From NCBI GenBank assembly GCA_951406725.2, contig OX597820.1, forward strand, positions 104,780,001 to 104,844,000: 64,000 nucleotides of DNA, written 5' to 3'. Positions 1,390 to 61,192 of the stretch are shown one piece after another. The translations under genes were made by a program, and so were the position numbers. The DNA is from Octopus vulgaris. Its lineage: Eukaryota. Positions within the stretch are counted from its first letter, which is position 1. Each line of letters starts with the position of its first letter. Below the pieces are notes generated by a model, which saw only the letters and a program-made list of their open reading frames with translations, was not told where the DNA came from and made no database searches.

Positions 1390-1438
1390 CCACCTTTGAG
1401 GATGACCACAAAGAGGTCGAAGCTGTACAGTCTAGTGG
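1390..1438 (+). ncRNA. Degenerate minimal type I hammerhead ribozyme
   Basis: ccac..TTGAGGA t gacc-acaaaga-ggtc GAAG ctgtacag TC ta gtgg; palindromic stem III; two core substitutions. Confidence 0.55.
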
Positions 1439-1633
1439 TCTTGTGGTTGGAATATGGTAGGAGTTCACTCTCCTGCTTGCAACATATATCGGGTGCAATT
1501 TGTATCAAATAACTAGCTAGAGGAGACGTTCCCCTGGGATCAAAAATAGCAGTAACGTCGTTTCCTACGGCACAGCCATGTTTAAGTGGCGGTAAACATT
1601 ACTTCTCAGTATAGTTACTGCATTTATAAAAGA

Positions 1634-2004
1634 CTAGCAGTATCGCCCGGCGTTGCTCAGGTTTGTAAGGGAAATAACTATAAAGCATTTTTAGAGAGTT
1701 ATAGCCAAAAAATAGCAAAAAAATGATGGTAAATTTTTTTTTGAGTTAAAAAAGGTTGAGTTGCGTCCCCTAGACAGTCTGTGGTTTGTTTCTGATTCTC
1801 GACCCCATGTCGATTTTATCGACTTTTTTCAGAACTGGGGGAACTTTTCAAAATTTTCGCTGCGTTAGTTTTGAATTATGACATTGGGCTATGTGTGTGT
1901 CAAGTTTCATCAGAATCGGTTGAAAGCCGTGGTCAGGGTGAGGGTACAAGCAAACATACACACAGAAACACGCACAGACAAACTGCCGTTTATATATAGA
2001 GAGA
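1634..2004 (-). mobile_element. Non-autonomous Helitron-like element
   Basis: Minus strand starts TC(TA)n and ends ...gcaacgccgggcgatactgCTAG; near-identical inverted copy at 7081-7450. Confidence 0.7.
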
Positions 2005-2794
2005 TTTTCTAACTAGCTAATTTGCTTGTTGCAAGATTTGTTTATGAAACAAATAAGGTTCTGAACATGTTTATTTCACTGTTTTTCTTACAATATCAGA
2101 TTTATGACTGACGTATATCCGGCTATAGTGTCATTTTCTTTTGTCACTCCTGTTGCAAGGAGGGGTAAAATTCCAGACAATTCTAGTCCACTTACGTTTC
2201 ATAAAGACTGTGAATGTTCAAGAAATATTAAATGGATTTTAAAAATCATTATTTATTTCTCATATATGTGTCGAGGCGTCAACGATTTTAAAACCTTAAG
2301 GTGCAGTGTATGCGGTCATTATCTGTGATGATAGGAAGTGCTGCTTACAAGGACGCGGAAGAGGGTTTCTACGTTACCACTCGACTCATTAGAAATAGCA
2401 AGCAAATTTCTATCAAATCACACCCTTCTGTGCTTAAAAATAGAAAACGTATGTGCCCACGATAATGTAGTCCTGAATCCGTTACGCCTTAAAAAACGAT
2501 GAGACGGTCACAGCTTGAACACCCTCTGTCACAGATTTCTTCAGTCAAAGCTATATAGAATAATTTGTAAAATATTAGGGTTAAAAAATCTTATACGAAA
2601 AGTCGTAGGCAGTCCATGAACTCAAAGCCATATCTTCTGTGTTTATTATTTATAATTTTAAGGTGAAGAAACGTTGCACTCATGATCGTAAGATTGTGAT
2701 TTCGATTCCTGGACAGGGCGATGCGTTGTGTTATTGAACAAAACATTTCATTTCGCGTTGCTCCAGTCCACTAAGCTGGCAAAAAAGGCAAGAC

Positions 2795-2985
2795 AGCGAG
2801 CTGACAGAATCGTTGACTCGCCAGAAAAAAACGCTTTGTGGAAATTTTGTCAGTCTTTATATTCTGTGTTCAAATTCGACTTTGCTTTTTATCCTTTCTG
2901 AGTCGATAACTAAGCACCAGGCAAGTGCTGGAGTCGATCTAATAAACTAGCCTATACCACAAGATTTCAGGCCTTGTGTCCATAT
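2795..2985 (+). mobile_element. tRNA-derived SINE (Octopus OK-like), diverged
   Basis: gcgagctgacagaatcgttg...gttcaaattcgactttgcttttatcctttctgagtcgata matches the SINE at 50428-50655. Confidence 0.6.
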
Positions 2986-57582: not shown

Positions 57583-58789
57583 CGGCAGGAGCAGTAGTAT
57601 CGCCTTCAATTTCGCCTCGTTTTTTAACGTCTGTATGTTATTCTCGATTTCTTTGAATATCACTCTTTTCTTCTTTTTCTTCTTCATCGTCTTCTTCTTC
57701 CTCCTCCTACTCCTCCTGCTAGTTCTACACCTCTTTTTTCCTTTTTCTTCTATTTCTTCCCCTTCTACTGCCAATTCTTTTTTCTTGCTCATCTCTTCCT
57801 CTACTAATTTTTTCTTTCTTCCCTTTTTTCCTTTCGCTCTACTTTCGCTATTCCTCCATTTTCTTCTGATCCTTCTTCTTCTCCTTCCCCTTCTCTTTCA
57901 TATTCTTCTCTTTTTCCCTATTATTCTTCCCTTGCATCTTCTTTTTCATCTTCGTCTGCTCCTTTTCCTCCTTATTCTTGCTCTTCTCTTTTTTTTTTCT
58001 TCACCATCATCCTTTCCATTACCTAGTAACCTGTAGGAAAGTCAGAAGTTAAGCTTATTTATCAAAGTAACATCAAACAAGATTTTTTTTCTCCCTACAG
58101 AAATAATGTCAGTCCCCCGTCAGTCACTGCCCATTATATCTCCGTGCATGTATATGCAAGCCTAGACACGAATTTTTCAAAGACTAGCAAGTTGCCCATG
58201 CACACAAGTCACGCTTCTCCACGCCTCCGATGTTTATTCTAGGACTGCCGACTTGGAAGTAGGGGTGAAATAAGGCATAAGATTACTAATACAACCGATT
58301 CTAAAAGGGAAAAACGTTTGTGTGACACGAGTACCACAATGTGTATGTGTGTGTGCGCATGTATGTATATATATATATATATATGTACGTGTGCGTGTAC
58401 ATATATATATATATATATATATATATATATATATATATACATGCATACATACATACATTCAAATATGTGTGTATGCATATATATATATATATATGTATAT
58501 ATGCATATATGTGTGTATGTGTATATGTATATATATATATATATATAAATATACATATACATGCACACACTCAAATATGTGTGTATGCATATATGTATGT
58601 ATGCATGCTTAAATGTATGTATGTATGCATGTAGATGTAGGTGTTTGTATATGTGATGTTATTACGATTGCAACAAACAAAAGAGAAACCAAGATACCCA
58701 GAGACTACAAACATCGCTGGTAGCATTCTACCATGATCATTTAGATAAGCACCTAAATTCAAACATATGTGTATATGTGTGTGTGAAGG

Positions 58790-59200
58790 GTACGTAGTAA
58801 ATATACAAGCATAGTAAATCTGCCTATTTCTGCATATGTTCAAAAAAATTATGAGCCACTTTAATCGATTATTCAACGCTTATTGGCGTCTCATCAGGGA
58901 TACGTACATCAATTTGACTAATCTCAGTGAAACAACTAGTGAGTCTGTTTATATACACAACAAATCCAGTAGCTTCTGAGAACTGGATCTAGTAGTGTGC
59001 ATACCAAAAGTATAAAACATTCTAATATCAGAGGCCTGGCAACTGGGAATCCAATCTACACAGTACCAAGGTAGGATATAATATACGTAAACCTGTCTAG
59101 TAGACATAAAAGCGAGGCAAATTTATCTATTTCGCAGTAGACTAAAAAAAATGATGAACAACCATAATCGACTTTCAACTATTGGGGACTCGTTAACAGG
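58790..59200 (-). mobile_element. Second, diverged locus of the ~290-300-bp hammerhead tandem repeat
   Basis: Shares ctgtttatatac, ggcctg.caac, acacagtaccaaggta.gatataat with 12268-12712; HHR remnants at 58859-58900 and 59163-59200. Confidence 0.7.
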
Positions 59201-59455
59201 AAAAACATCGTTAACAGAATCCAAAACATAAGTATCTATATATATATATATATATATATATATATATATATATATATATATATATATATATATATAGATA
59301 GATAGATAGATAGATAGATAGATAGATAGATAGATAGATAGATAGATAGATAGATAGATAGATAGATAGATAGATAGATAGATAGATAGATAGATAGATA
59401 GATACTTATGTTTTGGATTCTGTTTTTCCTGTTAACGAGTCCCCAATAGTTGAAA

Positions 59456-61192
59456 TACATAATGGAGAGGAAAAAAACCTCTATTAAACAATTCAATTGT
59501 GAAAGACGTTATTCACACCATATAGAAAAAATAAATATACTATAAAAACCTTATTCTAAAAATCAATAAAGTATATAAACAGTAAATAGTAAATAGAAGT
59601 AAATTGACTACGCGCGCTTCGTGGCTATATTTTCAAATAGATAATAATAATAAAATGAATTTGATTTAAAATTAAATCGATCTAAAATTAATTCTATTTA
59701 AAAATATAGTCACTCATCAGGTCTAAAATGATAATAATAATAATAATAATAATAATAATAATAATAATAAAAATAATAATAATAATAATAATAATAATAA
59801 TAATAATAATAATAATAATAATAATAATAATAATAATAATAATAATAATAATAATAATAATAATAATAATAATAAGTGTACGTATCCGAACTTATAATAA
59901 TTATCAAATAAATATAGAAAAGTATGTGTTTTAACAATAAATAATCAAAAACATTTAACAATATTACTTAAAATAAAACCATAACTTATCATATCGAAGA
60001 ATTTCTGTTAACTAAAATTTTAAACGAAATATGTAGAACTTTGCGTTTATAAGAAATATATCGCATGAAAATATGACGTAAATAAAAATTATAGAATAAA
60101 TTAGATAGAAATATATATTTAAGCTGTTAAAATGACAAAATGTGTTTTTGGTGTGAGAATAAGAAAAAATTAACTGTAATATACTATTTACTGGAAAATT
60201 TTAAAGTCTAAAAAAAATTTTAATTAAAATACGTAAAATACATAATATATGTAAATTAAGCTAAATTTCTATAATTTAATCTATTTTCATTAATTAATTT
60301 ATTTATTTTATAAACATCTTATTCTCATTATGTAATATACAGTATATAATCTCGTGCTAATTTATACACATTTTACTACTACAAATTATAACTACAACAA
60401 TTAGTAACATAGAATTGGGTTTATATATATATATATATATATATATATATATATATATATATATATATATATATATATAAATTAGCTAAACTTATTATAT
60501 AAGTAATTTAACTTATGTCTACATTTAATTTTTCGTTCATCTAGGAAATTAATTAATGTTTTTATTATTAGTTAATAATATCTCCTTGAGTTCATTAGTA
60601 TAAATAAACAAAAATCACTATCTATTCGATAAGATTTTGCCTTACAAACTATCTTCCAATTTAAATTGTACTTAATACTTTTAGATTTTAGTTCCCATAT
60701 ATATTTCCTAAGGCCAGTAGAATTAATTAAATTTCTTTTCTTAAAAGAATTCATGTGTTGAACCACCCGTAATTTAATTTTATTAGAAGTCGACCTTGTG
60801 TAAATTGCATTTAAATTATAGCCATTCTATTATTATCATCAATCAAAGTCACTACACATTTATATACTACATCATCCAAATTACATTTAGTCTTATCTCT
60901 ACATGTACAATTAATTATATTCTGGTCTTTATTATCATTATTGGAATAATTATTTGATTTGTCTTTATAAAACTTACTCAGCTTAAATCTATTAAAAGAA
61001 GAAATAATGTTACCAACATTATTAGTAGTTGAATAACCAAGTAGTCAATTTATTACTATTTACTATTTACTGTTTATGTACTTTATTGATTTTTAGAATA
61101 AGGTTTTTATAGTATATTTTTCTATATGGTGTGATAAAGTCTTTCACTATTGAATTGCTTAATAGAGGTTTTTTTTCCTCTCAATTATATAA
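59456..61192 (-). mobile_element. 5'-truncated Hydra-like PLE (GIY-YIG) with inverted pLTR
   Basis: NCTCRDKTKC; STGLRKYIWELK..NWKIVCKAKSY; 61041-61190 is the reverse complement of 59458-59611. Confidence 0.8.
59606..59723 (-). ncRNA. Hammerhead with very long stem II
   Basis: gac CTGATGA gtgactatattttt...gaaaatatagccac GAAG cgcgcg TA gtc. Confidence 0.7.

What the first reader, a model, noticed from the sequence alone, without database searches (positions are those of the whole stretch)
1390..59723. About 25 minimal hammerheads, each family with its own palindromic stem III
Seen: intact, decayed or half HHR motifs at 1390, 6523, 6913, 7548, 7612, 9879, 12343, 12629, 13963, 16131, 16684, 26854, 27146, 28387, 29734, 30464, 30873, 31876, 31985, 39487, 39634, 45374, 58859, 59163 and 59606. 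Stem III differs by family but is always (near-)self-complementary: ctgtacag, ctccgag, atat, ccgg, atcgat, catatg, tcacatgtga, tcacggtga, cttcgaag, ctctgag, cgatcg, tcggaccga, cgcgcg. Established: PLE-associated type I HHRs with short stem III cleave as dimers through palindromic pairing. Inference: the palindromes may act as family-specific pairing codes that keep co-resident retroelement RNAs from cross-processing. The density, roughly one per 2.5 kb, is striking.
Basis: partly seen in the sequence, partly recalled or inferred. Interest (0 to 1): 0.8.

Follow-up and report, generated by a model that had tools for sequence, protein, structure and literature searches.

The report
Penelope-type hammerhead remnants, no palindrome code
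These are real but mostly decayed copies of the small hammerhead RNA motif carried by Penelope-like jumping genes, whose palindromes likely let two RNA copies pair up to cut, as already published, and because different families often share a palindrome it is not a private code per family.

Summary
Observation largely confirmed; code idea not supported. Of the 25 sites, 13 are complete type I hammerheads with at most one core change, 8 are decayed and 4 are halves. They come from about 20 insertions of about 13 genome-wide families. A tolerant scan finds 12 strong hits against 0.6-3.4 in shuffles. Density is 2.7 times the genome sample, only borderline unusual. Four families sit 0.2-1.1 kb downstream of Penelope-type GIY-YIG sequence and insertions carry the typical inverted copy. 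Palindromic helix III differing between families is in print (Cervera 2014; Perreault 2011). Palindromes are shared more than chance: 28 families use 18, against 23-25.5 expected. In a dimer helix I must also pair between RNAs, so any insulation comes mostly from helix I. Less ordinary: all four Watson-Crick versions of core pair 3:8 occur beside the CCGG palindrome. A missed hammerhead in non-circular (SGC) order lies in a LINE 3' UTR at 35594-35644. The scan has already noted all of this on other DNA of this genome. Cleavage is untested.

The parts
1390..1438 (+). decayed type I hammerhead, palindrome CTGTACAG, two core changes
   Evidence: one 71% relative in sampled DNA
6523..6560 (-). hammerhead, CTCCGAG, U4C; long-tailed inverted partner of 6913; family linked to RT + GIY-YIG ORF
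   Evidence: family
6913..6950 (+). hammerhead, CTCCGAG, U4C; ends in (TA)n about 30 nt after the cut site
7553..7595 (-). hammerhead, ATAT, G3:C8 core, helix I clipped at the inversion junction
   Evidence: family count
7615..7665 (+). hammerhead, ATAT, G3:C8 core, inverted partner of 7548
9887..9919 (-). hammerhead, CCGG, G3:C8 core, 272 nt downstream of a GIY-YIG remnant
   Evidence: relatives with A3:U8
10188..10463 (-). PLE GIY-YIG endonuclease remnant upstream of the 9879 hammerhead
   Evidence: tblastn E 7e-31
12342..12384 (-). best-preserved hammerhead, ATCGAT, canonical core
   Evidence: family
12627..12671 (-). decayed ATCGAT-family hammerhead, duplicated at 16129-16173
   Evidence: family
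13963..14040 (-). hammerhead, CATATG, long loop II; 99% inverted partner at 16684
16129..16173 (+). duplicate of the 12629 motif
16684..16761 (+). hammerhead, CATATG
18185..19595 (-). broken PLE RT + GIY-YIG ORF remnant; no hammerhead scored within 1.5 kb downstream
   Evidence: tblastn E 1e-42 and 3e-22
26829..26876 (+). 3' half of a TCACATGTGA-family hammerhead
   Evidence: intact family members
27146..27206 (+). hammerhead, TCACGGTGA
   Evidence: no close relative in sampled DNA
28387..28404 (+). 3' half, CTTCGAAG, inside an inverted-duplication junction
   Evidence: family
29734..29792 (+). hammerhead, CTCTGAG, G5U; different family from 6523/6913
30464..30567 (+). decayed hammerhead, CGATCG, long loop II
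30871..30931 (-). hammerhead, TCGGACCGA
31876..31920 (-). 3' half, TCGGTCCGA, inverted partner of 31985
31985..32045 (+). hammerhead, TCGGTCCGA family with one palindrome change
39487..39528 (-). truncated ATAT-family (G3:C8) copy
39634..39690 (+). doubtful decayed motif: first core box present, second broken, no family support
45374..45419 (-). decayed CTTCGAAG motif, cut-site UH lost
58859..58901 (-). decayed ATCGAT-family copy
59163..59205 (-). decayed ATCGAT-family copy
59606..59723 (-). hammerhead, CGCGCG, A15.1G, long loop II, 906 nt downstream of a GIY-YIG remnant
60626..60802 (-). PLE GIY-YIG remnant upstream of the 59606 hammerhead
   Evidence: tblastn E 4e-7
   Evidence: same helix II in A3:U8 family

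Best explanation
The sites are mostly decayed 3' ends of Penelope-like retroelements and their non-coding offshoots, each with a minimal type I hammerhead whose palindromic helix III likely forms between two RNA copies so that they would cut as a pair, and the palindromes likely differ between families through drift under that pairing rule rather than as a selected code. Shown: the motifs, their genome-wide families, the link of four families to GIY-YIG coding sequence, inverted partner copies with a tail at one end, and palindrome sharing between families. Established elsewhere: dimer cleavage of such motifs. Inferred: because the 3' strand of helix III runs straight into the cut site and the 3' strand of helix I, a dimer needs helix III and helix I both to pair between the RNAs, so diverged families stop cross-pairing as a by-product. 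Inferred: selection acts only on the mobile master RNAs; inserted copies decay, mainly at CpG.
For: 12 hits at score >=12 against 0.6-3.4 in shuffles. With no palindrome demanded, 11 of 17 strict hits in 600 kb (4 of 10 loci) have perfect palindromes against 0-1 in 15 shuffles. Genome counts against reversed-pattern controls: CTCnGAG 5,511 vs 2; 6-nt inserts 21,324 vs 5,258; 9-10 nt 3,322 vs 17; G3:C8 9,649 vs 1,010; 8-nt 1,238 vs 386. The 6523/6913 family lies about 1.1 kb behind an RT + GIY-YIG ORF (Atlas neighbours HTH_animal/RVT_1/GIY-YIG at 0.95-0.98); 9879, 59606 and the 12778 family lie 0.2-0.9 kb behind GIY-YIG remnants. 27 head-to-head pairs within 5 kb in the first 100 rows (counted by eye), tail at one end only, as described for PLEs (PMC8557442, passages). 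None of 15 helix III strands folds alone. Double changes between relatives keep the palindrome: CGCGCG/CACGTG, CCGG/CCTGCAGG. Sharing: 18 distinct in 28 families, P 0.003 or less.
Against: No cleavage was measured. No PLE coding sequence was found within reach of the ATAT, TCGGnCCGA, TCACATGTGA or CTTCGAAG families (shared upstream sequence 250-570 nt at most), and only a weak one for ATCGAT (E 9e-5). The PLE protein has no Pfam hit and no PDB hit. Same-strand tandem copies, which would allow dimers within one transcript, are rare in the 6523/6913 family (1 pair in 100 rows). A youngest subfamily has an A-A mismatch at 10.1/11.1. In an anole PLE, cleavage needed the PLE protein, was not needed for insertion in vitro, and no RNA-seq ends were seen at the cut site (PMC11167929, passages).
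Confidence: 0.8

Rival explanations
1. Helix III, together with helix I, is a selected self-recognition code that keeps co-active families from cutting each other's RNA.
For: Different palindromes of equal length pair poorly (heterodimer +10.9 to -3.9 kcal/mol against -6 to -14 for most homodimers). Only 1 of 13 same-palindrome family pairs cross-pairs helix I by 3 bp or more both ways. Inverted rather than tandem copies dominate one family, which would favour pairing between separate RNAs.
Against: Palindromes are shared more than chance at all three clustering cut-offs (19 in 32, 18 in 28, 15 in 24). Helix I compatibility is not depleted among same-palindrome pairs (1 of 13 against 6 of 338). 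CCGG is kept across a diverged PLE lineage. Centre variants of CTCnGAG pair better with each other (A x U -12.5) than with themselves (-7.4, -7.9). Family ages are only roughly known, so selection among strictly co-active families is not excluded.
Confidence: 0.08
2. The fold is kept as a protein-binding or folding element near the element's 3' end; cleavage is slow, protein-gated or dispensable, and the palindrome helps two RNAs load on a dimeric PLE protein.
For: PMC11167929 (passages): cleavage only with PLE protein, dispensable for insertion in vitro, protein predicted to be a dimer. Inserted copies run 30-45 nt or more past the cut site. High-copy families carry G3:C8, U3:A8, A3:U8 cores and 2-bp helix II, expected to be slower.
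Against: The 3:8 pair changes only to other Watson-Crick pairs in these families, which is what catalysis requires (PMC3088659 and PMC11167929, passages); dimer constructs cleave, if slowly (PMC4209133, Results).
Confidence: 0.1
3. Many of the 25 sites are chance matches in AT-rich repeat DNA.
For: The first relaxed descriptor did no better than shuffles (7 against 13.3 and 4.8); 39634 has no family support; 9879, 27146 and 45374 have no close blast relative in the sampled DNA.
Against: 12 strong hits against 0.6-3.4; most sites belong to repeat families with intact motifs and thousands of copies.
Confidence: 0.02

Closest known systems
Minimal and variant type I hammerheads in pseudo-LTRs of metazoan Penelope-like elements (Cervera and De la Pena 2014, PMC4209133; read Results, Discussion, bioinformatic methods and supplement parts 1-2 of 3)
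   Same: Same core order, short helix I, extra base after A9, palindromic 15.2-16.2 and loop 3, many consensus families per genome, solo truncated copies, opposite-strand pairs about 100-700 bp apart, U3:A8 variant. Their Fig. S3 lists different palindromes per family, also within Aedes aegypti, and the same CG in many species.
   Different: Here 4-10 nt palindromes are common whereas most Fig. S3 rows have 2 nt; G3:C8 and A3:U8 cores occur in high-copy families, which that paper does not report in the parts read; copy number is far higher.
Repeat-type hammerheads with palindromic stem/loop III (Perreault et al. 2011, PMC3088659; passages and the Fig. S8 legend only)
   Same: Palindromic stem III and loop III across several ribozymes, read as dimer pairing; natural U3:A8 covariation.
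   Different: No test of family specificity in the passages seen.
Small hammerhead variants of PLEs that cleave as dimers (Lunse, Weinberg, Breaker, RNA Biol 14:1499; not held, seen only as a citation and summary in PMC6765202)
   Same: Short palindromic stem III, dimer cleavage, PLE association.
   Different: Could not be read; it may already cover long palindromes or other core pairs.
Metazoan non-LTR retrozymes (PMC7229834, passages; bioRxiv 10.64898/2026.07.22.740005, parts 1-2 of 5)
   Same: Relatives of window families form tandem arrays: about 480-nt units with TCACTGTGA and 353-359-nt units with CCGG.
   Different: The window's own sites are solo or inverted insertions, apart from two loose ATCGAT pairs about 300 nt apart.
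PAc Poseidon PLE hammerhead of Anolis (Frangieh et al. 2024, PMC11167929; passages)
   Same: Tail beyond the hammerhead at one end of insertions, AT-rich targets, engineered G3:C8 partly active.
   Different: Tested biochemically; these families are not.

Membership tests
PLE-type minimal type I hammerhead | CUGANGA, GAAA, UH in type I order with helices I and II | tested here: met
   13 of 25 sites complete with at most one core change; intact members of families whose window copy is broken
PLE-type minimal type I hammerhead | short, self-complementary helix III that cannot fold stably alone | tested here: met
   15 of 15 helix III strands have no stable monomer fold and pair as homodimers; 8-10 nt ones might close a 2-3 bp hairpin inside the ribozyme (not tested)
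PLE-type minimal type I hammerhead | position behind an RT + GIY-YIG ORF | tested here: inconclusive
   met for the 6523/6913, 9879, 12778 and 59606 families; weak for ATCGAT; not found for ATAT, TCGGnCCGA, TCACATGTGA, CTTCGAAG within 1.5 kb flanks
PLE-type minimal type I hammerhead | self-cleavage as a dimer | not testable with these tools
   needs in vitro assay
Penelope-like element (EN+, C-terminal GIY-YIG) | single ORF with PLE-type RT then GIY-YIG | tested here: met
   507-aa partial ORF with RT and GIY-YIG motifs by eye; Atlas neighbours HTH_animal, RVT_1, GIY-YIG; no Pfam or PDB hit; clade not tested
Penelope-like element (EN+, C-terminal GIY-YIG) | 5'-truncated insertions with an inverted copy and a tail at one end | tested here: met
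Non-LTR retrozyme | tandem non-coding units, one hammerhead each | tested here: inconclusive
   arrays exist for related families elsewhere; the window's sites are not in arrays
Non-LTR retrozyme | expressed linear and circular monomers | not testable with these tools
   no raw RNA reads on offer
Family-specific pairing code (proposed) | palindromes unique to families or more diverse than chance | tested here: not met
   18 distinct in 28 families against 25.5 and 22.9 expected
Family-specific pairing code (proposed) | homodimer preferred over every heterodimer | tested here: not met
   helix III energies equal for CTCnGAG and CCGG families, better across centre variants; predicted energies only

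The most novel reading that the evidence does not exclude
Helix III and helix I together form a two-part self-recognition code under selection among co-active Penelope families, so each family's RNA is cut only by its own kind; and the CCGG lineage, which has spread with all four Watson-Crick versions of the catalytic 3:8 pair, records how a ribozyme active site is rewired while dimer partners stay compatible.
Probability: 0.08. Interest if true: 0.6.

Novelty: new member of a known kind. Interest (0 to 1): 0.27.

Why it matters
As it stands this is a known design in an unusually rich genome: about 6 near-intact motifs per 100 kb above shuffle background, which extrapolates to well over 100,000 copies. 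Its value is as a natural mutagenesis set: dozens of families with 2-10 nt palindromes and four core 3:8 pairs, useful for the open question of what PLE hammerheads do. If a selected code were real it would be a case of RNA self/non-self recognition among selfish elements, but the counts point the other way.

Tried and rejected
Rfam scan at E <= 1: the 150 listed of 226 matches were all microsatellite-driven miRNA models, no hammerhead among them; 76 weaker rows were not shown. The repeat finder was swamped by microsatellites; only the inverted pairs were useful. A rigid descriptor missed most sites and did not beat shuffles when relaxed. Single-linkage clustering chained different families through neighbouring repeats and was replaced by anchored average linkage; one accepted cluster was a microsatellite false positive and was dropped. 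The Pfam copy lacks PF26215; Pfam and PDB gave nothing for the PLE protein. The long ORFs at 32451-35525 are not a PLE but an RT element with a restriction-like C-terminus. Lunse et al. was not held. No paper testing family-specific palindromes or heterodimers turned up; no natural G3:C8 or A3:U8 family; subscription journals and bioRxiv supplements were not seen and may hold both.
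Full report
Setting. The window is G000:C7:104780001-104844000 in a 2.80-Gb, 227-contig genome, AT-rich and full of microsatellites. The closest named hit of a window retrotransposon protein by identity is from Octopus bimaculoides (75% over 44% of the query), so an octopus is likely (inference).

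Observation. All 25 coordinates hold hammerhead-like sequence. A rigid type I descriptor found 4 strict and 7 medium hits against 0.0-0.4 and 0.9-1.5 in shuffles, but when relaxed 7 against 13.3 and 4.8. A tolerant scan (any Watson-Crick 3:8 pair, one defect in helix II), tuned after seeing the sites, gave 12 hits at score >=12, all among the 25, against 0.6, 0.8 and 3.4 in three kinds of shuffle, 10 each. Sorting the 25: 13 complete with at most one core change, 8 decayed, 4 halves. Five pairs are inverted partners or 99% duplicates, leaving about 20 insertions from about 13 families. Site 39634 is doubtful.

Density. In 108 stretches of 10 kb taken at round coordinates across the chromosomes, the same scan gave 76 hits (7.0 per 100 kb; shuffles 7, 9, 16) against 18.8 per 100 kb in the window; 12 flanking stretches gave 10. 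Resampling gives P 0.02 for 12 hits and 0.13 for 8; three of the 12 are inverted partners, so the second figure slightly over-corrects. Whole-genome pattern counts against reversed controls: 5,511 vs 2, 21,324 vs 5,258, 3,322 vs 17, 9,649 vs 1,010, 1,238 vs 386, 1,204 vs 1, 3,176 vs 0. The window is a somewhat rich sample of a genome full of these motifs.

What carries them. The family of 6523/6913 lies about 1.1 kb behind an ORF with RT and C-terminal GIY-YIG motifs. Pfam and PDB gave no hit; the Atlas put it beside HTH_animal, RVT_1 and GIY-YIG clusters at 0.95-0.98. Its copies come as head-to-head pairs (27 pairs within 5 kb against 1 same-strand pair in the first 100 of 5,511 rows, counted by eye), one ending in (TA)n about 37 nt after the cut site and the other running on into a longer tail. 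That is the PLE insertion pattern (PMC8557442, passages). GIY-YIG remnants lie 272 nt before 9879, 906 nt before 59606 and 214 nt before a 12778-family copy. No coding sequence was found near the ATAT, TCGGnCCGA, TCACATGTGA or CTTCGAAG families; relatives of some form tandem arrays of about 480 or 353-359 nt like retrozymes.

The palindromes are real and kept. With no palindrome demanded, 11 of 17 strict hits in 600 kb (4 of 10 loci, 7 hits from one array) had perfect palindromes, against 0-1 in 15 shuffles. Within the ATCGAT family, anchored on flanks, 21 of 30 copies are perfect, 6 show CpG-type transitions, 3 other single changes, none a compensated change: decay after insertion. Between related families the changes are double: CGCGCG/CACGTG, CCGG/CCTGCAGG. 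None of 15 helix III strands folds alone; all pair as homodimers, ATAT barely.

The code test. From 179 hits at score >=12 in 316 sequences (1.88 Mb, partly family-targeted), 31 families were accepted; 28 with a perfect palindrome use 18 distinct ones, against 25.5 for uniform draws and 22.9 with first-base bias (P 0.003); the other cut-offs give 19 in 32 and 15 in 24. Shared descent can explain this, but it is the opposite of diversification. A PLE lineage with endonucleases 58-68% identical keeps CCGG. The two CTCnGAG families pair as well across as within (-7.8 against -7.8 and -7.9 kcal/mol), and centre variants A x U pair better (-12.5). By strand connectivity (inference), a dimer makes helix I intermolecular too. 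Among 27 families, 1 of 13 same-palindrome pairs and 6 of 338 other pairs cross-pair helix I by 3 bp or more both ways. So most families are insulated, by helix I as much as by helix III, with no sign of avoidance. Family ages are rough, so selection among strictly co-active families is not excluded.

Core variants. G3:C8 marks the ATAT family and site 9879. Beside CCGG all four pairs occur: C:G, G:C, A:U, U:A; rows have the helix II of 9879 with A3:U8. Natural U3:A8 is published (PMC3088659, PMC4209133); engineered G3:C8 is partly active (PMC11167929). Searches found no natural G3:C8 or A3:U8 family, but Lunse et al. could not be read.

Mechanism. Likely: element RNA carries the motif near its 3' end; two copies, in a tandem transcript or on a protein dimer, exchange strands through helix III and helix I and cut after UH, which would free the element from flanking RNA or allow circles. 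Dimer cleavage is from PMC4209133 (low activity) and the review PMC6765202 (passages). PMC11167929 (passages) tempers it: cleavage needed protein and was dispensable for insertion in vitro. Nothing was assayed here.

Known versus new. Cervera and De la Pena 2014 (Results, Discussion, supplement parts 1-2) already give the architecture, many families per genome, palindromic helix III that varies by family, and opposite-strand pairs. Perreault 2011 (Fig. S8 legend) notes palindromes across several ribozymes. Searches found no paper testing a family code. Earlier scan notes on this genome reach the same verdict; they are not independent support.

Side finding. The 3' UTR of the broken RT element at 32451-35525 holds cut site, GAAA and CUGAUGA blocks in that order. 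It is a young family (40 of 40 scored copies 99-100% identical, 2,241 candidates). Of 80 related metagenome loci, 54 distinct ones had enough UTR; 37 of these, plus the window, show the order with varied but paired helices I and III, against 0 of 1,100 shuffles. This is the type-SGC order of Eckert et al. 2023 (PMC10085705, abstract and sections 13, 15). The strand after CUGAUGA does not pair with the strand before GAAA in the window copy, unlike that type as described. The HERO label is recalled and taken from scan notes, not tested; the scan noted this element at least 8 times.

Verdict. Real, ordinary in kind, rich in variants. New members of a known kind; interest 0.27.

Noticed in passing
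window 35550-35652 (+), 3' UTR of the RT element at 32451-35525: Hammerhead core blocks in non-circular SGC order (cut site 35598-35599, GAAA 35614, CUGAUGA 35634). Found in 37 of 54 related metagenome UTRs with varied, paired helices I and III; 0 of 1,100 shuffles. More novel than the finding itself; already noted by the scan on other DNA; cleavage untested.
   Followed up: partly
window 32451-35525 (+): Broken copy of a young non-LTR retrotransposon family (RVT_1, restriction-like C-terminus by eye; 3' ends 99-100% identical genome-wide).
   Followed up: partly
window 9887-9919, 7553-7665, 62059-62089; genome-wide: All four Watson-Crick versions of core pair 3:8 occur beside the CCGG palindrome: A3:U8 1,204 copies, U3:A8 3,176; G3:C8 9,649 matches mostly in the ATAT family.
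   Followed up: yes
L121-L150, L211-L216: A young PLE subfamily with near-identical copies has an A-A mismatch at the base of a 2-bp helix II, yet dominates the 5,511 CTCnGAG matches listed.
   Followed up: partly
window 15940-16804 against 12547-12864 and 13920-14468: Two separate blocks are copied in inverted form at 99% identity and joined in swapped order; a complex recent insertion or local rearrangement.
   Followed up: no
G000:C1:64640504-64647268 and L031: Retrozyme-like tandem arrays: at least 15 units of about 481 nt (TCACTGTGA) and 7 units of 353-359 nt (CCGG) in two divergent arms.
   Followed up: no
window 3663-3990 (+), 18185-19595 (-), 47842-48114 (+), 11625-11720 (+): Further PLE coding remnants; no scored hammerhead behind the first three.
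   Followed up: partly
window 7742-9880: Long 5/10-nt tandem repeat giving open frames of 641-700 codons; its Pfam pentapeptide hit is likely a repeat artefact.
   Followed up: no
window 51100-51552 (-) and 49764-50288 (-): Tc1/mariner transposase fragment (PF01498) and a weak zf-RVT LINE fragment.
   Followed up: no
window 41066-41105 (+) and about 40760-40800 (-): Possible further inverted pair with U3:A8 core and GCGC palindrome; no family support in sampled DNA.
   Followed up: partly
L259-L288: TCGGTCCGA-family motifs have several extra bases between A9 and the long part of helix II, more than the one or two usually reported.
   Followed up: no
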